Below are positions 1,673 through 47,189 of a stretch of DNA of 64,000 nucleotides, in pieces. Source of the DNA: the human T2T-CHM13v2.0 reference genome, Homo sapiens. The stretch lies in NCBI RefSeq assembly GCF_009914755.1, contig NC_060930.1; one strand, 5' to 3'. The translations under genes and the position numbers were made by a program. Every line of letters starts with the position of its first letter. The stretch's first letter is position 1. The notes under the pieces were generated by a model. It was not told where the DNA came from, searched no databases, and saw only the letters and a program-made list of their open reading frames with translations.

Positions 1673-1837
1673 TAAACAACCAATAATATTTGGCATAATT
1701 TAGTATTTTGCCAGTGCTTCATTGCTTATGTGCAATGAGGCATTTAACAAAATAAATTGGACATATATATTTATAATTATTTTACCTATTCCGTCAGATA
1801 GTACATTTCTTAAGGAGTAAGGAAACTTGAAATATAA

Positions 1838-2172
<335 letters not shown>

Positions 2173-3169
2173 TCACAAAATATTTTTTCCTCAGAAGTGT
2201 GGCATTGAATGATGTATTGTTTTGTAGTGAGTACATTATCTCAGTGAACACACAATTTCTTTCAGATAGTCACCAGAGTAGTCATCAAAAGGAAAAGCAA
2301 TCTAAGTACCATTTAATGGGCTGCACTACACTAATATTCTATTTGATGAATTAACTGCATGTTTTTAGTTATCTGTTAGACTAGTTTTCATTCTTTTCCT
2401 TCCCTTCGGTATGATAAATTCTTTTAAAATGGTTTTATTCAATCCCAGGAAACTGAAAATACTTGAAAAAATAATATTTTGCAATTTGTCAGAAAATATT
2501 TCCTCACTACTTGACTGGTAATCTCAAGCATGATTAGTATAGTGTTTCCTATGAGCTAGAAGGTTTTTGGATTAGATGTGCAGGAATAGGCATTCTGCCT
2601 GCTTTTAAATGTCTAGCTGCACAGCTGAGCAAAAAAGCCCAACCTGGCAGTCAGAACAGGCTGCCCAGGGGAACTCCTATTGTTCAGCCCCATTCAGGCA
2701 AACTATAAGATCACGCATAGTGTCCGAGCCGGTGCTGGTGCCTAGTGAGAACATGGACAGTCCAGGCATGGGATGTGTGGATATGCTGCCTTCGCAGTGA
2801 TCAAGAATTCAGGATTTTAGAGCCCAGTAAATAGCTCATGAGAACTTGGGTTTAGAAAATCTGAACTGCTGGGCCACCCTGAAGTATCTTGAATTGAGGA
2901 GCTTGGGTGAAGAAGTCCTGGTATCAGTTGGGGGCCCTTCAGATGAGCTGCCACCTTGTGACTGTCCGTCAGGGTCATCTTTTGGCCATCCCTGGTTAGC
3001 GTTGCCATGTGGGTGACAACTAGGAGACTTTACTTGAATGTTCCCACAGATGCATGGCTGGGATGGCGTAAGTTCTTTTCTGTTTCTGGCAGCAATGGCT
3101 CAGGATTAGGGTTTATGAGGTTAAGATTAACGGAGACAATAGAAGAGAATCTTGACTTGATAATATGTT

Positions 3170-27799: not shown

Positions 27800-28560
27800 G
27801 TGATCCATTCAAGATTGAGACAATGTAAAAGATAGAGAACTGACTTTTGGGGCAGGCAGGCCTCCAGGAAGTGGGAGTGAGCTTTCACTTCAAACTGGGT
27901 GAGGGGTGGTGGAAAGGGAGGATGCTGATTAAAATAATAAACAACTGCTGGAAAGAGAAGTTGATTACCACACTGCTGTCAGATCAGCCAGGGGAGCTGC
28001 CAGAGCCCACTGAGGCTGCTCTCCCCGGCCACAAAGCCGGCAGAAGGGACTAGATTTGCTGCGAGAGCTTTTCTCTGGACAGACAGAACACCTTTTAAAA
28101 CAAGTTTAGTTCTGTTGCATTGACAGCATCCCTTAGGCCAGGCTGACCTAGGGAAATGGACTGAAACTAGCTTGGTGGTTACCATAGCAACCCAGGCTGC
28201 TGGTGTCTGGGAGAGTGAGAACCGGTGGCCTCTTGTCCTGTGTTTTGGTGTTTCTTCAGCTAAGAGTACACTCCTCCTTCGAACTCTACATAAGTCATGC
28301 TCTTTGAAAACTGGCTCTTTACCCAGGATTTTTTTTTTTTCGTTCTGAAATCGGTCTGAATGGAGGAAGTTGGTAATACTTGGCTTTTTTTTTTTCTTCT
28401 CTCATGCAAGTTTCCAGGATATAGCTTCTTTTTTTGCTGTATGTAATTGAGACCAAACTCTAAGCTTGGGGCCCTGGAGAGAACAGTTGTGGCCTGCAGG
28501 TCATTAGTGAGGTGAGCAGAAGGGAATCCTGGACTTCCCAGAGAAAGAGGAGACCATGCC
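27800..28560 (+). promoter_or_regulatory. Candidate internal non-CpG-island promoter and 5'UTR
   Basis: Locally raised GC, no recognisable repeats, a perfect RFX X-box and SOX-like sites (ACAATG near 27820, ACAAAG near 28031). It lies directly upstream of the candidate first exon. TSS unknown. Confidence 0.5.
28178..28191. promoter_or_regulatory. RFX X-box GTTACCATAGCAAC
   Basis: Exact match to the palindromic RFX consensus GTTRCCATRGYAAC. Confidence 0.75.
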
Positions 28561-28630
28561 AGCCTCGTGGAACACAGCTACCAGGAAATACAGAAGCAGG
28601 TCTATTCCTTGCGAACTCCGAAGTCCATGA
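28556..28630 (+). other. uORF1 MPASWNTATRKYRSRSIPCELRSP*
   Basis: gaccATGc start. Its TGA (28628-28630) overlaps the ATG at 28627-28629 (ATGA). It only matters if the region is transcribed. Confidence 0.4.
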
Positions 28631-28749
28631 AAAAACGGACCCACAGTGGGGTGGCTAAAATGTCCCAGCGCAAGCTGCCGCTGCTGCTGATGGACCATAG
28701 CTCAAGGGCAAGGCTTGTAAAGGATTTTACAAAGGATTTTAAAGTATAG
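28627..28749 (+). other. uORF2 MKKRTHSGVAKMSQRKLPLLLMDHSSRARLVKDFTKDFKV*, in frame with the candidate UTRN start
   Basis: ATG at 28627 to TAG at 28747-28749. Same frame as ATG 28837 and the donor at 28887. Confidence 0.4.
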
Positions 28750-28836
28750 CCAGAAAAGATACGGTGTTTAGAAGTTAAACGCTGTTGTCTGAAGGAAGTT
28801 TGCCGGAAAGATGTAGGCTTCAAGGGCTACTGGACA

Positions 28837-28887
28837 ATGATTGGTCTGAACTTCAACTTACGGGAACTGCTGACAAAATTTGAAAAG
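28837..28887 (+). CDS. UTRN: Candidate coding part of an alternative first exon of a short UTRN isoform (MIGLNFNLRELLTKFEK)
   Basis: ATG in acaATGa context (A at -3), 17 codons, then AAG|GTATGC donor exactly at a codon boundary. Joining to the phase-0 exon at 47017 gives ...TKFEK|DIQAE in frame. It lies in a repeat-poor island downstream of an RFX motif. Splicing is inferred, not observed. Confidence 0.62.
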
Positions 28888-31520
28888 GTATGCAGAAAGC
28901 AAACTTCATGAATGTACTTTTTTCCTTTCTTTCTTGCCTTTTTTTTCACTATACATTTAGATAGATGCTCTATTGACTCTTTGGTGGTTTAGTATAATTT
29001 ATAAGGAATATTCAATTTTGCTGTCTCCTTTAAAGATGTTTTTCAAGTAAAGGGCTAATTAGCAATTACTTCCTTTGGTCAGGAGGGCTTCTCATGATGC
29101 CTGTCACTTTTAGAATTCCACATCAGAAGAAACTCTTTGTACTCAAGTCAGCTGGTAATTTAACTGAAACTTCTTTGGAGAAAAAAAAAAGAAAATGAAA
29201 ATAAAATAAAAATCCAGCAAAAAACACTGGGTATTGGTGCCAAAGTCTGACTTCGTAGGCATGGGTTCTGTTCTCCATACCCCTCAGGTTTATCTGTCCA
29301 GCCACTGCCTGCCGTGCACTGCCCTGTACAGCCCTCTGCCTGGGGACTCAGCTGTGGGTGGCAGAAGTCGCTTCACAGTGACAGTGGCACATCTGACCTC
29401 AGGCTTTTTATCTGAGCGTGTCTGTTTTAAACATGGAGTGCTTGCATGCACTGTGAAGCTTTAATGCTTGGATTATTAAATGTGCGTATAGCTCTTTTTT
29501 CCATAGGAAGGCTCCTGGCACAATCTAGATGGAGTCTAGCCTGCCAAATACTACCTTACATTTATAGTTAAAACAGAAAACCTCCACATGCGTGTATGCG
29601 CTCCTGCCCTCTTTAGCCTTTGGATGCCAAACACCAATCTTCTTCCAATTTCCAGTCTTTAAAGAAAAAGAAAGGCAGAAAGGGGTGAAGTCCTCCCTCA
29701 CTTGGTATGTAAGTCAATTATTAATATTTAAAAAGCTGTGCTCAGTGGCTTTCACCGTGAATGCCCCATGGATCATTGCAAGTACAAATACTGTAGAAGC
29801 GAGACTGGATTGAGTCATTAAAAGAATAATGGGCTTTTTCTTACAAACCACAATTGCCAGAGGGAAAAGATGCAACATCATGCCATCTGAAAAGTTTGGA
29901 AGCTTTTCCAAAACAATTGCAGTCACTGCTTGCCTTTTGATGATAGGAACGTTATGGTGGGATGAATGTGGAGAGAGAAGAATTTAGCTCTTTGCTCCCT
30001 CCTGGCTGCAGTTGCTTCTCCCAATCTCTCTCTGCACCTCTACTGTAATGTAAGGATTAGGCTTGTAACACAGGGCGGACTTCGACCTCTCGCTTTAATA
30101 TGTGGTTAAGCATCTAAATTCCTGAGAGTAAAAGACGGTTCTCCCTCAGCTTGCTCTCCACTTAGAAGGGGCGGGGAAGGCAAGGAATATCTTCCTTATG
30201 GCAGCTGGTAACAGCAGGTGACAAACTTTATGACCATAAAGAGGTCTGTTAGCTTGTTTTGTATAGATTTGTCTGTTTCTTCCTTTAAAGGTATAGAGCA
30301 TATGTTACATGAATAATTCATTACTTAGACCCCCTGAGAGGCAGTAATTGTGGGCAATAGCTGGACTTTTGTATTGTAATTGCTGCTATTAGTCTTAAAA
30401 GTCTAGGTCAGATACCAGGGGTTCCTAACCTGCCTCAGCTTCAAGCCATTTTATTGGCAGAGTTAGAAGTTCTGGTTATATTAGCATGTTTCCCCTTTTA
30501 ACTCCCATGTCTTAGTATTTGTCTTATTCCTATTTTAGTAGTTGAATTGACAGTAGAAGATATCTACTGGCTTTTTCCTGTCAAAGGCTTGATTTGGGAT
30601 TTTTATTATTATTATTATCTATTTATTTATTTATTTATTTTTGAGACAAAAGGCGAACTCAAAGAAACAGTCCTGATGTAATTCTCAGTCTGAAGTTCTC
30701 CATATATGTGTATTTTTGTGTTAGGCAGTTTTATAAAAACCTATGTGAAAGTTGATCTCTTTGGCCGTATTTTACTTCTAGGAAGTTGTCGTACATGAAT
30801 GTATTCTTTCCAAAGTGTTAATAAAATCCTTTGCGTATTCTTACAAAATCTGTCTCATATATTGAGATGTTGCTTCATTGGTTTATTGGCAGGAAAACTG
30901 GAATTACGGAAAAGTATCAGTACCTCACACGTCTCAAATACAACTAACCACCTTCCCCCAACAAAGCAATAATGCCATTTCTAGGGAAAGACCAAGGCCT
31001 ACTGCTATAATGCAGAAGCCACAGGATCCCTTCAGAAGCTGAGTAACAGCCATTCTACACGCAGAGGTAGAGTCCCTTTACCCTCAATTCTCAGTCCTGT
31101 CTCTTCCTCAGTATTAGTAACCTGTTTCTAGAGAGAATACTAGCCTTAACGATTTACCACTTTTCATATCAGCAGTTGTCATTGTTCAGTCTGAAGTTTA
31201 GGTGACCACAGTAGAAAGGGGATTTTGCTGTATTCCTGAAGGAATTTCAGGCTTTAAGAAAACGAGGGTCCACTGTTGGACTAGTAGACTCAAATCCTGA
31301 TACGCTTAGTAGTTGAGGCCAACAGCTGAGCAGCAGGCCTTCCAATGGTGGCTAATCTGGAAAGTTATAGACTGGTCAGATCATTAAAATTCCCAGGTGA
31401 AAGCAGACCTTCAGCATAACTTTAAGACAGCAGTTTTTTTGTGAAGGTAAATTGAAAGGGATATTTTAGTTGATATTTTTGAATTTTGGAGACATCCAGT
31501 GGTTTTGTGATTTTTACTGG

Positions 31521-31569
31521 ATATAAGAATGTTTGGCATGTTATACTCATATAAGAATGTTTGGCATGT
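31521..31569. repeat. 21-bp direct duplication atataagaatgtttggcatgt
   Basis: Copies at 31521-31541 and 31549-31569. Confidence 0.9.
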
Positions 31570-33083
31570 GGTTGAGCACCTTGTCTCAGCATGTGTGATG
31601 CTGGGATTGTAGTTTCCCAGCACAGGCAGGATGGGCAATTTCTTACATTGGGTACTGATTTCTAGTCTTCTAGAACCAGAAAGGGCAAGGCTAGGAGTCT
31701 CTTGCAGGCAGGAAGTATTATGTTCCTACAAGATGACAGCTCATTACAGATTAGGAAGGCCCAATTGGAGGGAACCATGCCAACTCGAGTGGTACCTAAA
31801 GAGGAAGAACTTCTTACCAGGGGAGGATGACCCCATACCAAGATGTGCCTGCCAGCAAGCAGGTCCTAATCATCTAACAAAGTGATAAGGGATGAGAAGT
31901 TGTGGCCATGGGCTCAAGGGTGACTATGGGAAGAGTTCACATTCAAAGTTGACTAGTCCACCAACACACCTCTCTGAGATCCAGCCAATAGGTAGTTTTA
32001 TTTGCCACGCTGATTTTAATTAATTTTTTTCCCTGAAAGTACTTCCTAAAGGAAGTATCTCATGACTTTAGGGACTATTAACATACTGTCATACTTAAGC
32101 CATTTGCATTGTGTACTGTATTTCTTTTGTTTAATAGTCACAGAGGATAGTGTAATGGCCAATTTTAGCTCAGTGACATTTTGAGTGACTGCTGCCTTTT
32201 ATTAATTTATTCAGACCTGCTACTGAATGGTTAATGATAATCGTAGTTCTCTAAGGGATTTTTTGATGTATGTGTCTGCTGTGTGTGTGAGTGCCGTTCT
32301 CTTAGTACCATTCTCTTGGTGACTCCTTGGGCAAAGATGCTTCCTATCATAACAACACAGAGAGAAACCACTCAATGCTGAATTACTTTATGGCATTTAC
32401 CTCCTTTCACATGACTCTATCTTTTATAATTACAATTTGAAGCTATATTGTATTGCTCAGTTTGCCATATCTCATTTTAAAACAAATGTGTCCTCAATAA
32501 GATATAGTAAACACATTTCAAAGTCTCCTCATTTATTCCCTACTTAGCAAATATTTGTGAAGTATGTACCAGGTGCTAGTCTAAGTGTATAGATGGAGAA
32601 GACATTGATCTTATGGCCGAATGGGAGGATACAGACAAGGACATTTTCAATGACAACTGCATAATTAAGCAAAAGTAGATGAAATTATAAGAGTAATGAT
32701 AGCCCTAATCTCAGTACTTGTGAAGTCTCTCCTGGAGAAATTACATTTAAACTGAGACTTAACAGATGAGTTTAAGTTGAAAGAAGGAAATGAGATTATA
32801 TACCAATGTGTGTGCATGTGTGTGGCCCATGGGTGGACTTGTGTCAGGGGAAGAAATTGGGAGCTTTCAGGGTAACAGGGACTGCTTTGACATGGGTCAG
32901 AAGTTGAGAAGCTGTGTGCCCCAGGCTTGTAGTTTTAAACATTTGAAATGCGATAATTTTTCTCTGGGTTTTCTGACCTGTTCAGTTTTGATTACACGAT
33001 CTGATTTGTTTGTTCAGTTTTCATCACACTATCTGAGTTTGTTCCACTTAGTAATTTGACTGTTTTCTACTCTGTTGTCTTAC

Positions 33084-33170
33084 TTTTTTTTTTTTTTTTG
33101 GAGACATGGACTTGCTGTGTTGCTCAGGCTGACCTTGAACTCCTGGGCTCAAGCTATCCACCCACCTCGA
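33084..33170 (-). mobile_element. FLAM-like Alu left-monomer fragment
   Basis: Poly-T, gaactcctgggctcaagc; TSD gtcttac. Confidence 0.8.
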
Positions 33171-33990
33171 GTCTTACCTATATTTATCATCACAGATAAT
33201 AGGAAAAGAACATTATTAGCATCGATTTCTTAATTCAGAAATGCTGCTGTAGACCTGATGATACCACCTCTATTGTCAGTCAAAAATGTGATTCAATAGA
33301 GTGATTAAAATCTGTGAGATTAGCTGTTGGAAGAAAATTTATAGAATAATAATTAAAATCAATAAATTAATTGAATAATTAATGACAATTACTATCCCAG
33401 AAACCTCACAAACTGTTTCAAAACATATTTACATATGACATAACCTTTGAAGATGATGTTATTTGCCTATTCTATTATTATTTAAGTAATATATATATAT
33501 ATTTTTAAAATCATGATTCCTCATTTTCAAAACCTAAAGCTCTGGCAGTAATCCTGCTGAGCTCCTGATAATAATTCTGAAATCTAGTCTGACTTTTGAA
33601 AGGAATGGTGGATTTATTTTCCTCTAATGATTAACTTTGTTTAGTTAGGCTGAGCTTTGGGACATGATAGCGAAATTGTTCTAACCTCATTTCTTCTTCA
33701 CCTTCAGGAAAGGGGTCAGAACTCCTTCAGAAAAAAACATCACTGTTGCCACATAAGGTTAAGTAAATAGTTGGTGCAAAAATAAACCAAAATTATTTTA
33801 ACAAGACCAAAGAGGATGAATCTAGTCTAGCACCCATTTAGTTGTTGAAGACTTCCTGGTGGTACTGTTCTAAATCTCTGTTTCCTGTCAGAGATTTCAG
33901 ACAGTTCTGTTTATTATAATGTGAGGAAATATTTTTGCTTACATATTTAAGCAAAATATGTTTTATTTTCATGATGTTTTATTGATTTGT

Positions 33991-34116
33991 TTTATAATGT
34001 ATATCACATAATTTGTTTATAATGTTTTATAATCAAGCTACTACTTGTAGCTTTATAATCAAGTAGTAGCTTGACTGTGAAACATTATAAACAAGTTATT
34101 TGATATACATTATAAA
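33991..34116. repeat. Long inverted repeat (57-bp arms, 12-nt loop)
   Basis: Arms at 33991-34047 and 34060-34116 are 52/57 Watson-Crick complementary. Confidence 0.95.
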
Positions 34117-35590
34117 GTGTTTACAGTTATATCTCTATGGGTTATATCATTAGAGAAATGCCCAGTTAAGGGCAAAACTTGTAGTCAAATACTAATTATT
34201 AAATAAGTAAAAAGTAAATAAATAAATGTTTTCCCGTATTTGTGAAGTTTATCTTGATCTGAATAGTGGGTGTTGTTTACAGAAAGACTAACCACTTATC
34301 AGTGAACCTCAGTGAGCTTTTGTAGCCATCTTCTGGAGGGCTGTTCTGAGGGTTTGCATCTTATGCTTTTGATGGTGTTTTATTTAGAGAAAAGTGTGTA
34401 GTCCTATTTTTCTAACTCCTGGCTTTTCTTAACCTTCTACATTATACTTACATTGTTTTAAAATACTTTTCAAGTGAATCCTTAGGACATTGCTTCTGCC
34501 CTGTTTTCAAATGTTAGTTCAACTGCTTGAATATCTTGCCATGGCCCCTCTGTGCACATGACTGGCTTATGTTAAATGCTTGGAAGAGCATTGCTTTGTG
34601 CTTCAAGATGGATTACATTCCCATAACTAATTATCAGTAACCATTTTGTGCTGTTTAAAGTTCAGAAGGGCTTGCAGGTGACAGAGGTAAGCATCAGTAG
34701 GGCCAAGTCTCCCAGCTGTGCAGTGAGAGCCAGCCCTCTTTCATGGAACTTTAATTTATTGTAGCATTTGACGCCACATCAGGGTCATGATCTGACAGCC
34801 TCCCATGCTGACATCCTGAGTTTCAAATCAGTGCATCATTGCATAGTGATCTACGAAGAAACATGATTCATTAACTGCATTTATTTCTAAATTTTCAGTG
34901 CAAGCTTAGCCAGGACTTTGCAGTGCAGGCTTCTAAATTATTTTAAGTTCCCCCATTAAACTTTTCAAGTGAAGAAATTGCACAAAATGATTACTACATT
35001 TCCTTCCAATTTTTCAATTGTTTGGTTTTCTCCTAGCACTATAGTGGCCAATTTGCCAGTCAATCAAAATAAACCTATTAATCCACTCATACATTGATAT
35101 GTGTATCTATGTGTCATCTATCTACTCTGTTTACATTAGGATCCTTCTATGTAACAGAGACTGTGAGGATACAGAAGAAATATTAAGATGATTTTCTGTT
35201 TTGAGGCACTCTGGGTATATTTGGCAAAGTTAATATGCCACCAAATGTCAAATAAAACAAAATAATGTCTGTGGATTTCCTTTTCTTTGATCACTTGTGG
35301 TTTGATTTTCTTCCCAACTTTTGATGATGATCATGTGTGGAAGGGTTTTCCACATACTGAAAATTATATTCCAACATGAACATATGATCACTGGTAGCAC
35401 AGTTAAAGAAAGGTTTGTGGAACTGCTTATCATCCTTGGTTGGGCCAGCTATGCAGTCCTGTTTCATTCCCATTCGTCGTGGTAGCTGGGTTGGAAAACA
35501 CATCGCCTGATCTGATGTGAGAAGGCGAATTTTCTTTATGTTCTTGGAACCCAAATGTCCTGATGTTGCGTATGCTCTTGTGAAACTTAG

Positions 35591-35970
<380 letters not shown>

Positions 35971-37085
35971 TTTTACTTTTTGCTTCTCTTCAATGTGAAA
36001 GGAATCAAATAGGTCAAACCACATCAGGATGTTGTAGTTTGAAGTTGTCTTGTGATTTTAGGTGTGGTTCATCGATAATGATGTATAGGAACTTAAACAG
36101 GAAATTTGAAGCCAGGTTCTCCTTGGCAATAGAGAGCAAAGAGGTGCCTTGCTTGTCGTGTCATTGAGCTTCCTGAGAAAGATGGCTACCTTACAGATAT
36201 ATAGCGTAAGCATAAAATCATTGCAAAACACTATCTGCACACCTTTAAATATGTCTCTTTAGAGGTCTTAAAATGCACTTCAGGACACAAAAATAGAACA
36301 GTTGTATCAGGAGATGACACCAAAGAACTTTTCAGCGGAACTTCCCTTTTTCTTTTTTTCACTGAGAATTTCTATTTGGCACATCTCAAACTATGATTGT
36401 AATGAGACTGCAATTTTCTACACATAATGTTGCACAGCCTGAGAACCTTGAATCATTATCTGGCTCTGTTTCCCAGCTGCCCTATTCACTTCTCTTCTGC
36501 ACTGCTCTGGGATAGAACTGCCAGTGAAATGCAAAAGATTCAACAATCTCAGAGTTTTTATTCAGCGGTTAGGCCTAATTCTGCAAACTGCAAACCACAC
36601 TTTGCATTGGACCAGATTTGGTTTTGTCATTTGGGTCAGATAACCTCAGAGATCAATGGGTTTGCAAATTTGGACCATAAATCTTGCAGGAGCTGTCTAT
36701 TAAACTTTGTGTTCATCTCACCCAGTCTCTAAATCTGACCCTATTAGTGTCATGTTAGACATCTCAAATCCCATCAGAAATAATACTAGGTCAGTGCTGC
36801 CAATTCACCTCATGTAACTGACATCTTCCTAACATGCTGATTGGAGTAGTGAGGTGCAAAAGGCCCTTCCTTGGGTGTTTCTGGTTAGTGGAGGTCTATG
36901 GGTGATTGAAAAACAAGCACTTAGATGCTGGTCCCTAAGCCTGGATTCTTGGTAGAATGCATGGGTGTGCTTACTAGGAGTGAATTTTAAATAAAGAAAA
37001 GCATTCTGAGTATTTAAAGTATTCCTATGTAAATTTTCACCCTGCTTATTTATTTATAACAAGAGAAACTTACAATGAGTGAGGC

Positions 37086-37451
37086 TGTCTTAGTCAGTTT
37101 GGGCTGTTATAACAAAATGCCATAGACTGAGTAGCTTATAAACCACAGAAATGTATTTCTCTCAGATCTGGGGACTGGGAAGTCCAAGATCATGGCACTG
37201 GCAGATTCGATATTCTAGTGAGGGCCTACTTTCTGGTTCATAGGTGTTACCTTCTAGGTGGGTCTTCACCTGATGGCAAGGGCAGGGCAGCTCTCTGGGG
37301 CTTCCTTTATAGGGGTAGTAATCTCGTTCATGAGAGCTCCACCCATGACCTTATCACCTCCCAAAGGCCCCACCTCCTAATACCATTATTGTCAGGGTTA
37401 GGGGTTCAAAAAAAAGAATTTTGGGAGGACACAAATATTCAGACTATAGCA
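37086..37451 (-). mobile_element. MLT1A-type MaLR solo LTR
   Basis: tgtcttagtcagttt..gggctg.tataacaaaat ... ggaggacacaaatattcagactatagca; TSD gaggc/gagtc. Confidence 0.88.
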
Positions 37452-38568
37452 GAGTCTTATAAAGAAAAGCTTCAGAGTAGAAGGACAATAGAACTATGGT
37501 GTTTAGGAGTTTGCTCTCCTTTACTAATTCAGATTCATTGCCTGAAATGCAAGTTTTTTATTTCTGCAGTGAGCTGTTTTACTGTTCATTACCAATGATA
37601 GCCATGGAGACTCACACCACATCTTCATACCCAGCTCTGGTCCCTGCTTTTCTGTTTGTAATTCACACTTACTTATGATACATTACTGGCTGTCATGCCA
37701 GAGTTAGCTACAATTAGGTTGCTTCCATTAAATTCAGGAGGAAAAGATAATTGCCAAACTAATATGGATAGTTATGCTGACAATTTTATAAGGGAAAAGT
37801 AGGAAAAAAATTGGATAGACACTCTATATCTTAAATTTGTTAGATTTATCTAATAAAAAGAAACTTTGAGTTTAACTTTTTGAAAACTCAGAGAAGTATA
37901 GAGATGAAAACTAAACTTATCTGTAATCCTCTTCTATAGAGGTTACACTATTTTTGTTTATTTTTGTAGTCCTATTGTGTATGTGTCAAATTATACACAA
38001 ATGCATATGCCAATTAAAGTATGTACTTTTAAAAATGAAATTATCATAATATATAGTTTTATATCCTGTTGTTAAAAATATTATATCACCACTAATATAT
38101 TATGATAGCTTCCACTCTTTTACTCTAAAAACAATCAGTGTGTTAAAACATTTTTATACATAAGTCTTCTTAAGTTAGATAATTTTAACATTTTTATGGC
38201 TTTTTAAAATTGCAGTAGTTTTGGGGGGAACAGGTGATGTTTGGTTACATCCATAAATTCTTTAGTGATGATTTCTGAGATTTTGGTGCACCCATCACCC
38301 AAGCAGTGTACACTGAACCTAATGTGTAGTCTTTTATCCCTCACCCCACCTCCCACCCTTCCCCTGGAGCTCCCAGAGTCCATTATACCATTCTTATGAC
38401 CTTCTGTCATCATAGCTCAGCTCCCACTTATAAGTGAGAACATACGATGTTTGATTTTCCATTCCTGACTTACTTCACTTAGAATAATGGTCTCCAACTC
38501 TATCCAGGTTTCTGTGAACGCCATTATTTCATTCCTTTTTATGCCTGAGTAGTATTGTAGTATTCCAT

Positions 38569-38603
<35 letters not shown>
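38569..38603. repeat. (TG)n microsatellite inside L1PB
   Basis: About 17 TG units. Confidence 0.95.
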
Positions 38604-38606
<3 letters not shown>

Positions 38607-41600
38607 CATATATGTTTACATTTTCTTTATCCACTTGTTGACTGATTGGTATTTGTACTGGTTCCATATTTTTGCAATTGCAAATGGTGCTGCTATAAAC
38701 ATTCCTGTGTACATGTCTTTTTCATATAATGACTTCTTTTCTTCTGGGAAGATACCCAAGTATGGAATTGATGGATCAAATGGTAGTTCTATTTTTAGTT
38801 CTTTAAGGACTCTCCATACTGTTTTTCATAGTGGTTGTACTAGTTTATGCTCCCATGAGCAGCGTAAAACTTCCCTTTTTACCACATCCACACCAACATC
38901 TATTTTTTTTTATTTTTTAATTATGGCCATTCTTGCAGGAGTAAGGGGGTATCACATTGTGGTTTTGATTTGCATTTCCCTGATAATTAGTGATGTTGAG
39001 CATTTTTTCATGTGTTTGTTGGCCATTTGTGTATCTTCTTTTGGGAATTGTCTATTCATGTCCTTAATCAAGTTTTTGATGGGATTATTTGTTTTTATTC
39101 TTGCTGATTTGTTTGAGTTCCTTGTGGATTCTGGATGTTAGTCCTTTGCTGGATGCATAGTTTGTGAATATTTTTCCCACTCTGTGACTCTATGGGCTGT
39201 CCATTTCCTCTTCTGATTGTTTCTTTTGCTGTGTAGAAGCTTTTTCATTTAATTAAGTCCCGTCTATTTATAATTGTTTTTGTTGCATTTGCTTTTGGGT
39301 TCTTGGTCATGAAGTCTTTGCCTAAGCCAATATCTAGAAGAGTTTTTCTGATGTTATCTTCTAGAATTTTTATGGTTTCAGATCTTAGATTTAAGTCTTT
39401 GATCCATCTTGAATTGATTTTTGTATAAGGTGAGAGATGAGGATCCAATTTCATTCTTCTACATGTGGCTTACCAATTATCCCAGCACCATTTGTTGAAT
39501 AGAGTAACTTTCCCCACTTTATGCTTGTGTTTGCTTTGTCGAAAATCAGTTGTCTGTATGTATTTGGCTTTATTTCTGGGCTCTCTAGTCTGATCCATTA
39601 GTCTGTGTGCCTGTTTTTATACCAGTACCATGCTCTTTTGGTAACTATAGCCTTGTAGTATAGTTTGAAGTCAGCTAATGGGATGCCTCCAGATTTCTCC
39701 CTTTTGTTTAGTCTTGATTTGGCTATGTGGGGTCCTTTTTGCTTCCATATGAATTTTAGAGTTTTTTTTTTTCTAGTTCTATGAAGAATGATGATAGTAT
39801 TTTGATGGGAATCATGTAGAATTTATAGATTGTTTTTGACAGTATAGTCATTTTCACAATATTTATTCTACTCATACATGAGCATGGGATGTGCTTCCAT
39901 TTGTTTGTGTTGTCTGTGATTTCTTTCAGCAGCATTTTATAGTTTTGCTTGTAGGGATCTTTTACCTCCTTGGTTAGGTATAATCCTAAGTATTTTATTT
40001 TTTTTACAGCTATTTTAAAAGGGGTTGAATTCTTGATTTGTTCTCGGCTTGGTCACTGTTGGTGTATAGCTGTGCTACTGATTTGTGTACATTCATTTTG
40101 TATTCTGAAACTTTACTGAATTTATTTATCAGATCTGGGAGCTTTTTGGTTGAGTCTTTAGGGTTTTTTAGGTATACAATCATGTCATCAGCTAACAGTT
40201 TGACTTCCTTTTTACAGCTAACAGTTTGACTTCCTTTTTACAGATTTGGATGTCCTTTATTTCTTTCTCTTGTCTGATTGCACTGTCTAGGACTTCCAGT
40301 GCTATGTTGAATAGAAGTGATGAAAGTGGACATCCTTGTCTTGTTCCATTTCTCAGGGGGAATGCTTTTAACTTTTCCCCATTAAGTATAATGTTGGCTG
40401 TGAATTCATCATAGGTGGCTTTTATTACCTTAAGGAATGTCTCGTCTATGCCAATTTTGCTGAGGGTTTTAATCATAAAGGGATGCTGGATTTTGTTAAT
40501 TGCTTTTTCTGTGGCTATTGAGATGACCATGTGATTTTTTGTTTTTAATTCTATTATGTGTTGTATCACATTTATTGACTTGCATATGTTAAACCATCCC
40601 TGCATCCCTGGTATGAAACCCGTTTGATCATGATGGATAATCTTTTTTATACGCTGTTTGATTCAGTTAGCTAGTATGTTTTTGAGGATTTTTGCATCTG
40701 TGTTTATCAGTGATATTGGTCTGTAGTTTTCTTTTTTGTTATGTCCTTTTCTGGTTTTGGTATCAGGGTGATACTGGCTTCGTAGAATGATTTAGGGAGG
40801 ATTTCCTCTTTCTCTGTCTTGTGGAATAGTGTCAATAGGATTGGTACCAGTTCTTCTTTGAATGTCTGATAGAATTCGGCTGTGAATCCATCTGGTGTGG
40901 ACTTTTTTTTTTTGGTAGCTTTTTAATTACCATTTCAATCTTGCTGCTTGTTACTAGTCTATTCCGAGTTTCTCTTTCTTCCTGGTTTAATTTAGAAGGG
41001 TTGTATATTTCCAGGAATTTATCCATCTCCTCTGTGTTTTCTAGCTTATGTGTGTAAAGGTGTTCACATTGTTCATGGTAGCCTTGAATCATCTTTTGTA
41101 TTTCTGTAGTATCAGTTGTAGTATCACCCATTTCATTTCTAATTGAGCTCATTTATATCCTCTCTCTTCTTTTCTTGGTTAATCATGTTAATGGTCTATC
41201 AGTTTTATTTATCTTTTCAAAGAACCAGCTCTTTGTTTCACTTACTTTTTGTGTTTTTTGTTTGTTTGTTTCACTTTCATTTAGTCCTGCTCTGATCTTT
41301 GTTATTTCTTTTCTTCTGCTGGATTTGGGTTTGGCTTGTTCTTGTTTCTCTAGTTCCTTGAGGTGTGACCTTAGGTTGTCTGTTTGTGCTCTTTCAGACT
41401 TTTTGGTGTAGACATTTAATGCTGTATACTTTCCTCTTAGCACTGCTTTTGCTATATCCCAGAGGTTTTGATAGGTTGTGTCACTATTATTGTTCAGTTC
41501 AAATAATTTTTTAATTTCCATCTTGATATCTTTGTTAACTGAAAGATCATTCAGGAGCAGATTATTTAATTTCCATGTATTTGTTTACTTTTGAAGGTTC

Positions 41601-43178
41601 CTTTTGGAATTAATTCACAATTTTATTCCATTGTGGTCTTCTGAGAGAGCACTTGATATAATTTTGATTTTCTTAAATTTATTGAGGATTGTTTTATGGC
41701 CTATCATATGGTCTATCTTGAAGAATGTTCCATGTGCTGATGAAAAGAATGTATATTCTGCAGTTGTTGGGTAGACTGTTCTGCAAATATCTGTTAAGCC
41801 CATTTGTTCTAGGGTATAGTTTAAGTTCATTGTTTCTTTGTTGACTTTCTGTCTTGATGACCCCTCTAGTGCTGTCAGTGGAATATTGAAGTCCCCTACA
41901 ATTATTGTGTTGCCATCTGTCCCATTTCTTAGGTCTAGTAGTAATTATTTTATAAATTTGGGAGCTCCTATGTTAGGTGTATGGACTAATCCTTTTATCA
42001 TTATATAATATCCTTTCTTGTCTCTTTAGTTTTTGCTTTAAAGTCTGTTTTGTCTGATATAAGAATAGCTACTCCTGCTTGCTTTTGGTTTCCATTTGCA
42101 TGTAATATCTTTTTGTAATCCTTTACTTTGAATTTTTATGAGTCCTTATGTGTTAGGTGAGTCTCTTGAAGACAGCAGATACTTGGTTGTTGGATTTTTA
42201 TTCATTCTGCCATTCTGTATCTTTTAAGTGGAGCATTTAGGCTATTTACATTCAATGTTAGTATTGAGATGTGAGGTACTATTCTATTCCTTATGCTGGT
42301 TGCTGCCTGAATACCCTTTTTTAAAAAATTGTGTTGTTGTTTTATAGGTTCTGTGAGATTTATGATTTAAGGAGATTATATTTTGGTGTATTTCAAGTCG
42401 TTTTTCAAGATTTGGAGCACCTTTTATGATTTCTCGTAGTGCTGATTTGGTAGTGGTGAATTCTCTCAGCATTTATTCATCTGAAAAAGACTTTATCTCG
42501 GCTTAATTTATGAAGCTTAGTTTCACTGGATGCAAAATTCTTGGCTGATAGTTATTTTGTTTAGGGAGGCTAACAATAAGACCCCAATCCCTTCTGGCTT
42601 GCAGAGTTTCTGCTGATAAATCTGCTGTTAATCTTATAGGATTTCCCTTGTAGGTTACCTGATGCTTTTGCCTCACAGCTCTTAAGATTCTTTTCTTCAT
42701 TTTGGTTTTAGATAACCTGATGACTGTATGCCTAGGTGATGATCTTTTTGTGACGAATTTCCAAGGTGTTCTTTCAGCTTCTTGTATTTGGATGTCTAGA
42801 TTTTTAGCAAAACCATGGAAGTTTTCATTGATTTTTTTTTTCAAATAAATTTTCCAAACTTTTAGATTTCTCTTCTTCCTCAGGAACATGAATTATTCTT
42901 AGATTTGGTTGTTTAACATAATCCTAAATTTCTTGGAGGCTGTTTTTTTTTTAATTATTTTTTATTTGTCTTTGTCAGATTGGGTTAGTTGGAAAGCCTT
43001 GTCTTTGAGCTCTAAAGTTTTTTTTTTCTACTTGCTCAATTCTCTTGAAACTTTCCAGTGTATTTTGCATTTCTCTGAGTGTGTCTTTCATTTCCAGAAG
43101 TTGTGATTGTCTTTTATTTATGATATATATTTCTCTAAAGACTTTTTCATCCGTAACCTGTGTTGTTTTTTTAATTTC

Positions 43179-43485
<307 letters not shown>

Positions 43486-45134
43486 TAAGGTAGTTTTTAC
43501 CTTTCTCTGGTGCCTCCTTGAGTAGCTTAATAATCAGCCTTCTGAATTATTTATCTGGCAATTCAGATATTTCTTGTTGGTTTGGATTGGATCCATTGCT
43601 GGAAAGGTAATGTGATCTTTTGAGTGTGTTATAGAACATTATTTTTTCATATTACCAGAACTGCTTTTTTAGTTCCCCTTCTCATTTGAATAGACTGTTT
43701 CATTGGAAAGATCTGGAACTCATGGGCTACTGTTCAGATTCTTTTGCCCCATAAGATGATCACTTGATGTAGTGGTCTCCCCCTTCCCCTAGGGATGGGG
43801 CTTCCTGAGAACCAGACTGCAGTGATTGTTGTGCTCTTCTGCGTCTAGCCACCCAGCAGGGCTACCGGGCTCCAATCTGATCCTAGGGAATGTCTGCAAA
43901 GAGTCCTGTAATGTGATCTGTCCTCAGGTCTCCCAGCCATGGATAGTAGCACCTGCTCCAGTGGAGGCTGCAGGGGAGTGAAGTGGACTCTGTGGGAATC
44001 CTTGGTTGTAGTTTGGTTTAGTGCTCTGGTTTTCTCGAATGCCAGTTATGCTAGCAGTGAAGTTGTCATGTGAACAGACTCAGGACTTGTGGTTAAGCTG
44101 ATGTGTGGTAAGCAGTGGAATTAGCTGTTGTTTTCTCCTTCTTTGGAGCAGGGTTGTTCTGTTATGAGTTGCTGTCATAACTTGAGTTGGTTGGCCTCTA
44201 GCCAGGAGGTGGTGCTTTCAAGAGAGCACCAGCTGCAGTAGTAGAAGGATGGTATAATGTTGCCCTATGTTGGCCAGGATGAGTACTCAGGTCATCTCAG
44301 GTGATGGGTAAGGCTGTAAAACTCCCAAGAGCTTATGCTGTCTTGTGGCATTTGCAGTGGCAAGTTGCTTCCTTGAAAGGGTCTGTGAATTCTTTTGGTT
44401 TTCCTGGTATGTTCCTGCAGTGGTTCTTGGAGCGAAAGTTCACGGTGTGAGTCTCCAGACGCTGTTCTGTCTGCCTAAGCAGGAGCTGTGCATTAGACCT
44501 GTCTCCTATCTGCCATTTTCCTCAAAAGAATTTTAAGTCTATGGCTTTTGATATAGATTGCCAAATGTTTCCCCAAAATCTGAACCAATTTTAAAAAAAT
44601 TTATAATAATTCTAATTTTACTTAAACTGCCCCCAAATGTATTTTATAAAGATAAACTATTTTTCTTTTTTTTTGGCTTTTTCATTTAATACTAGATATA
44701 AATAAATTATTGAAATTTCCCAGATAATGCATGCAATTGTTTTGGATAAATCAGTGGGATAATATTTTCTTTTATATTTAGTTATCAAAATAGATTAAGG
44801 GCAAGTAAAGTTAGGGAGACTGACTTTCTTTGTACTTTCTTTATACTTAGCCAGAAATTTTTCTGTTACAGAAGAATTAGATTGTTATTTACATGCCAAA
44901 TATATGTTTTTCGTGCTTATTCCCAAGAATGATCTTTCACATCAATAATAAAATAATTAGGTTGATAAATTTAAGAACCATTTTAAATCAAATAACTTCA
45001 CTTAAATATGTGCATAAAGGCTAGATCTTGTCAAAATTTCCCTCTCCCCTCTTTCTCTGTTTTTGTGTGTGCATAAGCCTGAATATATCAGTTATTCTAT
45101 GCTTTTGGAAGTATTTTTGCTGACACGTTAAAAG

Positions 45135-45321
45135 TTTTTTTTTTTTTTAATTATACTTTAAGTTCTGGGATACATATGCAAAATGTGCAGGTTTGTTACA
45201 TAGGTATACATGTGCCATGTTGGTTTGTTGCACCCATTAACCCGTCATCTACATTAGGTATTTCTCCTAATGCTATCCCTTCCCTAGCCCCTCACCCCAC
45301 AACAGGCCCCGGTGTGTGATG
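45135..45321 (-). mobile_element. L1PA 3'-terminal fragment
   Basis: tttaattatactttaagttctgggatac ... aacaggccccggtgtgtgatg. Confidence 0.9.
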
Positions 45322-45717
45322 AAACCGTTGTTACTAGTTTTTATTTCTTAAAGATGATGAACTTGTATATAAAAATATTCTTTTAACATTTTAGAAATAA
45401 ATTTTATAAGACTGAAAGGACAAACTATTAGTAAATGTTTCAAAATGTGAAAAACACTTTAGTTATAGTTATGTAATATCTTAGTGACCTCTGTAAGATG
45501 TAATATTTTAAGGGAAGTTTTACCTATGTGAAAACGGGAGAGTAAGAGTCTGTTGGATATTAGGCAAAGTTCAGTGATTTGGCAACAACAGTTGTATAAG
45601 ATTTCAAAAATTGCTAATTGAATCTGATATACCAACATCTAACTAGCTGGTACATGAACTATAGATTACAATACATTTTTTTAAAAAATTGAGGAGTCAG
45701 TGTATTGAACACCTTTT

Positions 45718-46845
45718 AAAAAATTTCAATTTAAGTTCTGGGATACATGTGCTGAACGTGCAGGTTTGTTCCATAGGTGTACATGTGACATGGTGGTTTG
45801 CTGCACCTATCAACCCATCATCTAGGTTTTAATCCCTGCATACATTAGGTATTTGTCCTAATGCTCTCCCTTTCCTTTCGCCCTACCCCCCGACATCCCC
45901 CGGTGTGTGATGTCCCCTTCCCTGTGTCCATGTGTTCTCATTTTTCAGCTCCCACTTATGAGTGAGAACATGCGGTGTTTGGTTTTCTGTTCCTGTGTTA
46001 GTTGCTGAGGATGATGGTTTCCAGCTTCATCCATGTCCCTGCAAAGGACATGAACTCATTCTTTTTTATGGCTGTATAGTATTCCATGGTGTATATGTGC
46101 CACATTTGCTTTATCCAGTCTATCATTGATGGGCATTTGGGTTGGTTTCAAGTCTTTGTTACTGTAAATAGTGCTGCAGTAAACATACATGTGCATTTGT
46201 CTGTATGGTAGAATGATTTATAATCCTTTGGGTATATACCCAGTAATGGGATTCTGGGTCAAATGGTATTTTTGGTTCTATATCCTTGAGGAATCGCCAC
46301 ACTGTCTTCCACAATGGTTGTACTAATTTACACTCCTACCAACAGTGTAAAAGCATTCCAATTTCACCACATCCTCGCCAGCACCTGTTGTGTACTTGCC
46401 ATTCTAACTGGCAGGAGATGGTATCTCATTGTGGTTTTGATTTGCATTTCTCTAATGACCAGTGCTGATGAGCTTTTTTTCATATGTTTGTTGGCCACAT
46501 AAATGTCTTCTTTTGAGAAGTGACTCTTTGAATCCTTTGCCCACTTTTTGATGGGGTTGTTTGCTTTTTTTCTTGTAAATATAAGTTCCTCGTAGATTCT
46601 GGATATTAGCTCTTTGTCAGATGGATAGATTGCAGAAATTTTCTCCCATTCTGTAGGTTGCCTGTTCACTCTGATGGTAGTTTCTTTTGCTGCCCAGAGT
46701 AATTGATAGATTCAGTGCTATTCCCATCAAGCTACCATTGACTTTCTTCACAGACCTAGAGAAAATGACTTTAAATTTCATATGGAACCAAAAAAGAGCC
46801 TGTATAGCCAAGACAATCCTAAGCAAAAAGAACAAAGCTGGAGGT
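45718..46845 (-). mobile_element. L1PA (about PA8) with 5' inversion
   Basis: Antisense 3' part at 45718-46690, then a sense ORF2 piece at 46690-46845 ([25 protein letters not shown]...KKNKAGG). Confidence 0.9.
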
Positions 46846-47016
46846 ACTGAAGATTTAAAGACTATAATTTTCAGAATAATAAGAATTTTGGAAGCACTTG
46901 AATTTCTTATAATTTAAGGTGAAATGAACTATTTTGCTTGAGAGCAACTCATCTGTGAATATAAAGATATACTGATTCCTAACACTTGCATTATCTATTT
47001 GCTTTTTTCTGTTTAG

Positions 47017-47189
47017 GACATCCAGGCAGAAATTGATGCCCACAATGACATATTTAAAAGCATTGACGGAAACAGGCAGAAGATGGTAAAAGCTTTGGGA
47101 AATTCTGAAGAGGCTACTATGCTTCAACATCGACTGGATGATATGAACCAAAGATGGAATGACTTAAAAGCAAAATCTGCTAGCATCAG
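47017..47189 (+). CDS. UTRN: Utrophin internal coding exon (spectrin-repeat rod domain; paralogue of DMD exon 56)
   Basis: Acceptor ttgcttttttctgtttAG|GAC with a branch-like ctaac near 46979-46983, and donor ATCAG|GTcaga. The exon is 173 nt (phase 0 to phase 2) and reads [57 protein letters not shown](R), with the spectrin helix-C motif L..mNqRWndL. It matches utrophin from memory, and length and phase equal DMD exon 56 (DLQGEIEAH...). It is absent from the ORF track because it has no start codon. Confidence 0.96.

What the first reader, a model, noticed from the sequence alone, without database searches (positions are those of the whole stretch)
28100..28893. Candidate internal first exon for a short utrophin with a distinct N-terminus (MIGLNFNLRELLTKFEK)
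Seen: an A(-3) ATG at 28837, 17 codons, and an AAG|GTATGC donor at a codon boundary 18.1 kb upstream of the phase-0 UTRN exon at 47017. Splicing would give [26 protein letters not shown].... Known: DMD uses the paralogous intron for Dp116, and UTRN uses it for G-utrophin/Up113, whose unique N-terminus (recalled as about 48 aa, beginning MQILR) is different and not visible here. Inference: this is a second internal start producing a roughly 110-kDa utrophin that lacks the actin-binding domain but keeps the last repeats, the WW/EF/ZZ domains and the C-terminus. It may already be annotated as a minor transcript; I cannot check.
Basis: partly seen in the sequence, partly recalled or inferred. Interest (0 to 1): 0.85.

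Follow-up and report, generated by a model that had tools for sequence, protein, structure and literature searches.

The report
Conserved first exon of short utrophin
This is a real alternative first exon inside the human utrophin gene, conserved from sharks to mammals, that gives a short utrophin of about 109 kDa, and it most likely matches an isoform already named Up109.

Summary
There is an ATG at 28837, 17 codons (MIGLNFNLRELLTKFEK), an AAG|GTATGC donor at 28888, and a phase-0 acceptor at 47017.

Human sequence signals alone do not exceed chance. The 47 kb upstream holds 7 comparable candidates, against 11.0 +/- 3.5 in shuffles.

Conservation decides it. Of 120 listed vertebrate proteins containing the exon-56 peptide, 21 begin with the same 17-residue peptide joined directly to DIQAEIDAH. 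They come from 3 mammals and from bony and cartilaginous fishes. Another 43 carry the different 48/49-residue G-utrophin N-terminus.

The G-utrophin exon lies outside the window, 76.8 kb further upstream. This is therefore a second, separate start in intron 55.

The product would be 957 residues and 109.6 kDa. That fits the isoform name Up109, which one review lists. The primary paper was not available, so this identity is inferred.

No counterpart was found in 130 kb upstream of DMD exon 56. Human transcription, the transcription start site and the protein were not testable here.

The parts
28837..28887 (+). Coding part of the alternative first exon: ATG plus 16 codons, MIGLNFNLRELLTKFEK
   Evidence: tblastn of the marmot model's first 17 aa hits only here (16 of 17 identical, E 1.4e-7). 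21 of 120 vertebrate proteins start with this peptide type.
28888..28893 (+). Splice donor GTATGC after AAG, at a codon boundary (phase 0)
   Evidence: It matches 7 of 9 positions of MAG|GTRAGT. In all 21 models the peptide joins directly to DIQAEIDAH.
28627..28836 (+). Presumed 5' leader and proximal promoter; its true 5' end (the transcription start site) is unknown. It contains an in-frame TAG at 28747-28749 and upstream ATGs at 28627, 28660, 28690 and 28811 (the last is ATG-TAG).
   Evidence: Positions 28627-28743 translate to 34 of 39 residues identical with the N-terminus of one camel gene model, so this DNA is conserved between human and camel. Window 28000-28840 has no TATA, GC box or CpG island.
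28888..47016 (+). Intron removed from the short transcript (18,129 nt)
   Evidence: Follows. No transcript data were available.
47017..47189 (+). Shared UTRN exon (paralogue of DMD exon 56), phase-0 acceptor, starts DIQAEIDAH
   Evidence: the hub annotation (NM_007124.3), and 98% identity to residues 49-107 of model P0013.

Best explanation
Window 28837-28887 is the coding end of a genuine alternative first exon of UTRN. The exon lies in the intron that corresponds to DMD intron 55. A transcript starting here splices from the donor at 28888 to the shared exon at 47017. It is translated from the ATG at 28837 into a 957-residue utrophin of 109.6 kDa. That protein lacks the actin-binding domain and most of the rod. 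It keeps the last spectrin repeats, the WW, EF-hand and ZZ domains and the C-terminus. It would therefore still dock on beta-dystroglycan, syntrophin and dystrobrevin without linking them to actin. The 17 unique residues probably lengthen the first helix encoded by the shared exon. The exon is separate from the G-utrophin (Up113) first exon, which lies 76.8 kb further upstream, so the intron holds two independent starts. The exon dates back at least to the common ancestor of jawed vertebrates. It is most likely the isoform known in the literature as Up109. Shown here: the sequence features, the cross-species conservation of the peptide and its junction, its separateness from G-utrophin, and the mass. 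Inferred: human transcription, promoter position, binding behaviour and the identity with Up109.
For: 1) The ATG, 17 codons, the phase-0 donor and the phase-0 acceptor are all present.
2) A search with the exon-56 peptide found 134 hits, of which 120 were listed. When classed, 21 of the 120 begin with MIG[LFW]..-type 17 residues directly before DIQAEIDAH. These are marmot, Brandt's bat, Tasmanian devil, gar, sturgeon, two mormyrids, zebrafish, cod, salmonids, seahorse and others, plus elephant shark and a devil ray. M1, I2, G3, L8, L12 and E16 are invariant in the 18 distinct peptides. Human versus elephant shark is 11 of 17 identical.
3) The models come from several annotation pipelines: NCBI XP models, UniProt/UniRef entries without an NCBI record, and authors' own annotations.
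4) These models carry spectrin, WW, EF-hand and ZZ Pfam domains.
5) The G-utrophin N-terminus (43 of 120) is absent from the window. It is encoded at G000:C6:145776080-145776223, which is window -47920 to -47777, with its own AAG|GTAACT donor.
6) Mass: 940-residue body + 17 aa = 957 aa, 109.6 kDa. The gar 957-aa model is 109.4 kDa. The G-form is 988 aa and 113.2 kDa, matching its name Up113. Review PMC10789850 lists short utrophins Up140, Up113, Up109 and Up71 (passage seen).
7) An AlphaFold2 model of a 170-aa fish fragment predicts a helix over residues 8-35 that runs through the exon junction.
Against: No human transcript, CAGE, junction-read or peptide evidence could be consulted. The hub's RefSeq table for this assembly lists no such transcript. 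Human sequence signals alone are at chance level. Window 28000-28840 has no TATA, GC box or CpG island, so nothing marks a promoter. Among the 120 listed proteins no bird, reptile or amphibian has this N-terminus, and only 3 mammals do. The exon may have been lost in some lineages, or this may reflect clustering at 90% identity. Some models may have been placed by cross-species protein alignment rather than RNA. The Up109 identity rests on the mass and on recall; the primary paper was not held, and a title-phrase search and an author-name search found nothing. The structure model has low confidence at the N-terminus (pLDDT below 50 for residues 1-6, block means 46 and 68 for residues 1-20).
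Confidence: 0.8

Rival explanations
1. The exon is the first coding exon but not the first exon. Transcription would start at a non-coding exon or promoter further upstream, so the stretch 28.1-28.6 kb is intron or leader rather than promoter.
For: Window 28000-28840 has no TATA, GC box or CpG island. Several upstream ATGs (28627, 28660, 28690, 28811) would burden a long unspliced leader.
Against: By eye, no convincing acceptor (pyrimidine tract plus YAG) lies between the in-frame TAG at 28747 and the ATG. Positions 28627-28743 are conserved between human and camel, as expected of a leader or proximal promoter. None of the 120 listed proteins joins exon-55 sequence or the G-utrophin peptide to MIGLNF.
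Confidence: 0.15
2. The exon is ancestral and works in other vertebrates but is silent or nearly silent in human. It would be a conserved relic, or a DNA element kept for another reason such as enhancer activity.
For: It is absent from the RefSeq table given for this assembly. Only 3 mammalian models were found among 120 proteins. Human carries N at residue 7 where other species have S or G.
Against: The human ATG, all 17 codons, the GT donor and the A at -3 are intact. The G-utrophin exon is also missing from the same RefSeq table, although it is an accepted isoform. Absence from that table therefore says little.
Confidence: 0.1
3. It is a chance ORF and donor in intronic DNA.
For: Seven comparable candidates occur in the 47 kb upstream, against 11.0 +/- 3.5 in shuffles.
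Against: The same peptide at the same junction appears in 21 of 120 proteins from mammals to cartilaginous fishes. In a profile scan of the window, this site scores 65.3 and the next ATG candidate scores -1.8.
Confidence: 0.02
4. It is the 3' part of the known G-utrophin (Up113) first exon, with human using a downstream ATG. This was my own first guess, prompted by the Cys-rich open frame upstream of the ATG.
For: The frame is open for 29 codons upstream and contains four Cys.
Against: The G-utrophin peptide is MQILRC...YQKLCK. It gives no significant hit in the window (best E 0.87) and maps 47.9 kb before the window start at 94% identity. The 17 residues show no similarity to its end.
Confidence: 0

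Closest known systems
Up109, a short utrophin isoform
   Same: One review lists it beside Up140, Up113 and Up71 as a product of an internal UTRN promoter (PMC10789850, passage seen). The product computed here is 957 aa and 109.6 kDa, matching the name. The neighbouring G-form computes to 113.2 kDa, matching Up113.
   Different: The published Up109 5' sequence could not be compared. The primary paper (recalled as Jimenez-Mallebrera et al., Mamm Genome 2003, mouse) is not held. I recall that its unique exon lies between the G-utrophin exon and exon 56, but I did not verify this.
G-utrophin / Up113
   Same: It has the same architecture: a unique first exon in intron 55, a phase-0 donor onto the same exon, and the same 940-residue body. 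It is also conserved across jawed vertebrates (PMC1790709, passages seen).
   Different: It is a different exon 76.8 kb upstream. It encodes a different peptide of 48 aa, with no detectable similarity to the 17 aa.
Dystrophin Dp116 (Dp118), first exon S1 in DMD intron 55
   Same: It is a short isoform that starts in the paralogous intron and splices onto exon 56. It lacks the actin-binding domain and keeps the dystroglycan-binding end (PMC5664101, passages seen).
   Different: Exon S1 lies 755 bp upstream of exon 56 and encodes 10 residues, or 24 as the proposed Dp118. The paper PMC1790709 pairs it with G-utrophin, not with this exon. A profile scan of 130 kb upstream of human DMD exon 56 found no MIGLNF-like ATG exon: the best score was 7.5, against 65.3 here.
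DRP2
   Same: It has the same overall layout as Dp116 and G-utrophin: two spectrin repeats plus WW/EF/ZZ (PMC1790709).
   Different: It is a separate gene with an unrelated N-terminus. I did not compare it here.

Membership tests
Internal-promoter short isoforms of the dystrophin/utrophin genes (Dp116 / G-utrophin class) | A unique first coding exon with its own ATG inside the intron before exon 56 | tested here: met
   ATG at 28837, with an in-frame stop 30 codons upstream and no ATG between them.
Internal-promoter short isoforms of the dystrophin/utrophin genes (Dp116 / G-utrophin class) | A donor in phase with exon 56, so that the common reading frame continues | tested here: met
   AAG|GT at a codon boundary and a phase-0 acceptor. 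The junction is seen in 21 of 120 proteins.
Internal-promoter short isoforms of the dystrophin/utrophin genes (Dp116 / G-utrophin class) | Conservation of the unique peptide across species | tested here: met
   Found in 3 mammals and in bony and cartilaginous fishes, with 6 invariant positions. No bird, reptile or amphibian example appears among the 120 listed proteins.
Internal-promoter short isoforms of the dystrophin/utrophin genes (Dp116 / G-utrophin class) | Its own transcription start and promoter, with a transcript observed in tissue | not testable with these tools
   No RNA-seq, CAGE or EST resource was available. No classic core-promoter motif or CpG island was found.
Internal-promoter short isoforms of the dystrophin/utrophin genes (Dp116 / G-utrophin class) | The product keeps the WW, EF-hand and ZZ domains and the C-terminus | tested here: met
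   Precomputed Pfam domains of the models P0030, P0060, P0109 and others: PF00435, PF00397, PF09068, PF09069, PF00569.
Up109 | Predicted mass of about 109 kDa | tested here: met
   957 aa, 109.6 kDa.
Up109 | 5' exon sequence identical to the published Up109 cDNA | not testable with these tools
   The primary paper is not held. Searches found only the name, in one review.
G-utrophin / Up113 | A 48-aa N-terminus MQILRC...YQKLCK | tested here: not met
   This is a different peptide. That exon lies at window -47920 to -47777.

The most novel reading that the evidence does not exclude
The exon marks a second, utrophin-specific start in intron 55. It is as old as jawed vertebrates and has no counterpart in human DMD. 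The 2007 survey of dystrophin-family promoters discusses only G-utrophin in the passages I saw. The human transcript is missing from the RefSeq table given for this assembly. If the published Up109 turns out to use a different exon, this would be an undescribed, deeply conserved utrophin isoform.
Probability: 0.25. Interest if true: 0.5.

Novelty: already known. Interest (0 to 1): 0.3.

Why it matters
Utrophin is the main candidate for replacing dystrophin in Duchenne therapy, and drugs and CRISPR activators are aimed at its promoters. A short isoform without the actin-binding domain could compete with full-length utrophin or dystrophin for dystroglycan. Knowing every internal start and its tissue pattern therefore matters for reading UTRN expression data, and for designing antibodies and knock-outs. 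The exon has been kept from sharks to human and has no detectable DMD twin. That suggests a utrophin-specific job, which most reviews do not mention: one of the two reviews I checked lists only three internal promoters. For human annotation, the practical point is that the RefSeq table supplied does not show this exon.

Tried and rejected
1) G-utrophin exon hypothesis: rejected.

2) Origin by duplication of the 3' end of exon 55, or of the G-utrophin exon. Ungapped profile comparison gave no signal: best score -7.8 against a null of -4.3 +/- 3.9, with a fraction of 0.82 of permutations reaching it. For the G-utrophin end the score was 0.8 against -1.8 +/- 4.7, fraction 0.27. An earlier version of this script timed out.

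3) DMD paralogue. In 130 kb upstream of DMD exon 56 on the sense strand, 46 candidates had ATG + 17 codons + GT. The best scored 7.5. Without the ATG requirement the best of 2,350 scored 19.1, similar to background in the UTRN window (15.4). The scan used a fixed length of 17 codons, so a shorter, longer or much diverged exon would be missed.

4) A protein search with the 46 codons upstream of the donor gave 4 candidates, none at E of 10 or below. A 17-residue match cannot reach significance in that database, so this says nothing.

5) A census search with residues 1-40 of the Tasmanian devil model added no new carriers: 33 hits, and the 9 carriers among them were all already listed.

6) Literature. 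The peptide string was in 0 papers. Up109 together with utrophin was in 1 paper. A recalled title phrase and author names each gave 0. Spelling variants gave no relevant hit among the 15 listed of 44. Utrophin plus 'intron 55' gave 11 papers. By title or abstract, and for two of them by the passages I read, none describes this exon.

7) Closed or not held: the supplementary files of PMC1790709, which hold the first-exon alignments and may bear on whether that study saw this exon; Blake 1995, PMC42028; PMC2896903; earlier findings of this scan.
Full report
What is in the sequence.
An ATG lies at 28837-28839 with A at -3. It is followed by 16 sense codons (MIGLNFNLRELLTKFEK, 28837-28887) and then by GT in the context AAG|GTATGC. 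The annotated UTRN exon at 47017 follows a good pyrimidine tract and AG, and opens in phase 0 with DIQAEIDAH. Splicing would remove 18,129 nt and keep the frame. The same frame is open for 29 codons upstream of the ATG, back to a TAG at 28747-28749, with no ATG in between. So 28837 is the first usable start in that frame.

Is it more than chance?
Not from human DNA alone. I counted ATGs with R at -3 followed by at least 5 open codons and a phase-0 donor matching at least 7 of 9 positions of MAG|GTRAGT. Window 1-47016 holds 7 of them, this one included. Fifty block shuffles gave 11.0 +/- 3.5, and a looser rule gives 94. Window 28000-28840 has no TATA, GC box, CCAAT box or CpG island. Its CpG observed/expected ratio is 0.26-0.44 in 500-bp windows, against 0.18 for the whole window.

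What decides it.
I searched the large protein collection with the 57-residue translation of the shared exon, asking for longer proteins (134 hits, 120 listed). I then sorted the 120 by what precedes DIQAEIDAH.

- 43 of 120 carry the 48- or 49-residue peptide MQILRCLQKCGKLK...SSPRYQKLCK. One of them is a mouse cDNA-derived entry. Its length of 48 residues agrees with PMC5664101 (passage seen).
The species are marmot (MIGLNFSLRELLTKFEK), Brandt's bat, Tasmanian devil, spotted gar, a sturgeon, two mormyrids, zebrafish, a minnow, Arctic charr (two models), a whitefish, bonefish, a jack, a goodeid, seahorse, a blenny, pollock, one unnamed source, elephant shark (MIGLNFSLQEWLRQFEQ) and a devil ray.
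- 56 of 120 are full-length fragments, intron read-throughs or other predictions.

In the 18 distinct 17-residue peptides, M1, I2, G3, L8, L12 and E16 never change. Positions 4, 6, 11 and 15 stay hydrophobic. Human and elephant shark share 11 of 17 residues. A profile of these peptides scores 65.3 at 28837 and -1.8 at the next ATG candidate in the window. The models come from NCBI's pipeline, from UniProt/UniRef entries and from authors' own annotations. Whatever evidence each pipeline used, the genomes of these species encode this peptide, with a start codon and a splice junction in the same place. Chance is excluded.

A caveat: no bird, reptile or amphibian among the 120 has this N-terminus, and only three mammals do. 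The collection is clustered at 90% identity, and a follow-up search added no new carriers. I cannot tell loss from under-sampling.

Relation to G-utrophin.
My first guess was that the Cys-rich open frame upstream of the ATG was the G-utrophin exon with a human-specific stop. That guess is wrong. The G-utrophin peptide gives no significant hit in the window (best E 0.87). In the window's own genome it maps at 94% identity to chromosome 6 positions 145776079-145776228. There an intact ATG, 48 codons and an AAG|GTAACT donor can be read. That is window -47920 to -47777, which is 76.8 kb upstream of 28837 and 94.8 kb upstream of the shared exon. The two peptides show no similarity, and the 17 residues do not resemble the end of exon 55 either.

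The product.
The 940-residue body of a primate G-utrophin model plus the window's 17 residues gives 957 residues and 109.6 kDa. The masses were summed without building the joined sequence. The 957-residue gar and ray models compute to 109.4 and 109.9 kDa. The G-form computes to 113.2 kDa, which is exactly its published name Up113. The models carry spectrin-repeat, WW, EF-hand and ZZ Pfam domains.

An AlphaFold2 model of a 170-residue fish fragment, made with a 7-sequence alignment, has mean pLDDT 70.9. It predicts one helix from residue 8 to 35, running through the exon junction at 17|18. Residues 1-6 have pLDDT below 50. This is weak support for the idea that the unique peptide simply lengthens the first helix of the truncated repeat.

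From established knowledge of the family, such a protein should bind beta-dystroglycan, syntrophins and dystrobrevin, but not actin. From general knowledge, a Met-Ile N-terminus keeps its methionine and is a typical NatC acetylation substrate. That is inference only.

Comparison with what is known.
Review PMC10789850 lists short utrophins Up140, Up113, Up109 and Up71 (passage seen). Another review, PMC8518368, lists only three internal promoters (passage seen). The mass match makes Up109 the obvious identity. I recall that Up109 was described in mouse in 2003, with a unique exon between the G-utrophin exon and exon 56. That paper is not held, and a title-phrase search and an author-name search found nothing. 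The identity is therefore inferred, not shown.

PMC1790709 is the broad evolutionary survey of dystrophin-family promoters. In the passages I saw it discusses G-utrophin, and pairs it with Dp116, but it does not discuss this exon. Its supplementary alignments could not be opened and may bear on this point.

Dp116's first exon lies 755 bp from DMD exon 56 and encodes 10 residues, or 24 as the proposed Dp118. A scan of 130 kb upstream of human DMD exon 56 found nothing like the MIGLNF exon. The exon therefore appears specific to utrophin, within the limits of a fixed-length scan.

What remains open.
Human transcription, tissue pattern, the cap site and the protein remain open. The stretch 28627-28743 translates to 34 of 39 residues identical with the start of one camel gene model. 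That model uses a weaker donor, AAA|GTATAG, at 28744. I read this as conservation of the 5' leader or proximal promoter, not as a second coding start, because only 1 of 120 proteins has it. If the leader reaches that far, it carries upstream ATGs, including an ATG-TAG pair at 28811-28816.

Verdict.
The exon is real, ancient and separate from G-utrophin. It is very probably the isoform already named Up109, and it is already present in many species' gene models. Its novelty is therefore low, though it is absent from the human RefSeq table supplied.

Noticed in passing
window 28627-28749 (+): A 40-codon ORF (MKKRTHSG...KDFKV*) lies in the same frame as the main ATG, just upstream of it. A camel gene model named 'dystrophin Dp140ab isoform' (P0007) uses its first 39 codons as an N-terminus, spliced at AAA|GTATAG (28744) onto the shared exon. 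Human and camel share 34 of 39 residues. Only 1 of 120 proteins has this N-terminus. It could be a conserved leader or a conserved upstream ORF.
   Followed up: partly
window 28811-28816 (+): An ATG followed immediately by TAG (a minimal start-stop) lies 21 nt before the main ATG. It would sit in the leader if transcription starts upstream of it. Its conservation is unknown.
   Followed up: no
G000:C6:145776080-145776223 (locus L003 1502-1645; window -47920 to -47777): The human G-utrophin (Up113) first exon is intact, with an ATG, 48 codons and an AAG|GTAACT donor. It is not in the RefSeq table supplied for this window's gene, which lists 2 transcripts.
   Followed up: yes
window 1751-2500: This is the only stretch of the window with island-like CpG content: 23 CpG in 500 bp, observed/expected 0.91. 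It overlaps a repeat-masked stretch (1842-2163), so it is probably a young repeat.
   Followed up: no
proteins P0068 and P0078 (mormyrid fishes), P0063, P0102, P0115: In some fishes the models start 1 to 8 residues upstream of the conserved MIGLNF (MRARHSTM-MIGLNF, M-MIGLNF). The start codon position therefore varies a little, while the peptide from MIG onward is fixed.
   Followed up: no
protein P0115 (zebrafish 'utrophin-like', 274 aa): Zebrafish has a short 'utrophin-like' model with the MMIGLNL start. PMC1790709 reports a transcribed G-utrophin pseudogene in zebrafish. I did not examine whether this model belongs to the gene or to the pseudogene.
   Followed up: no
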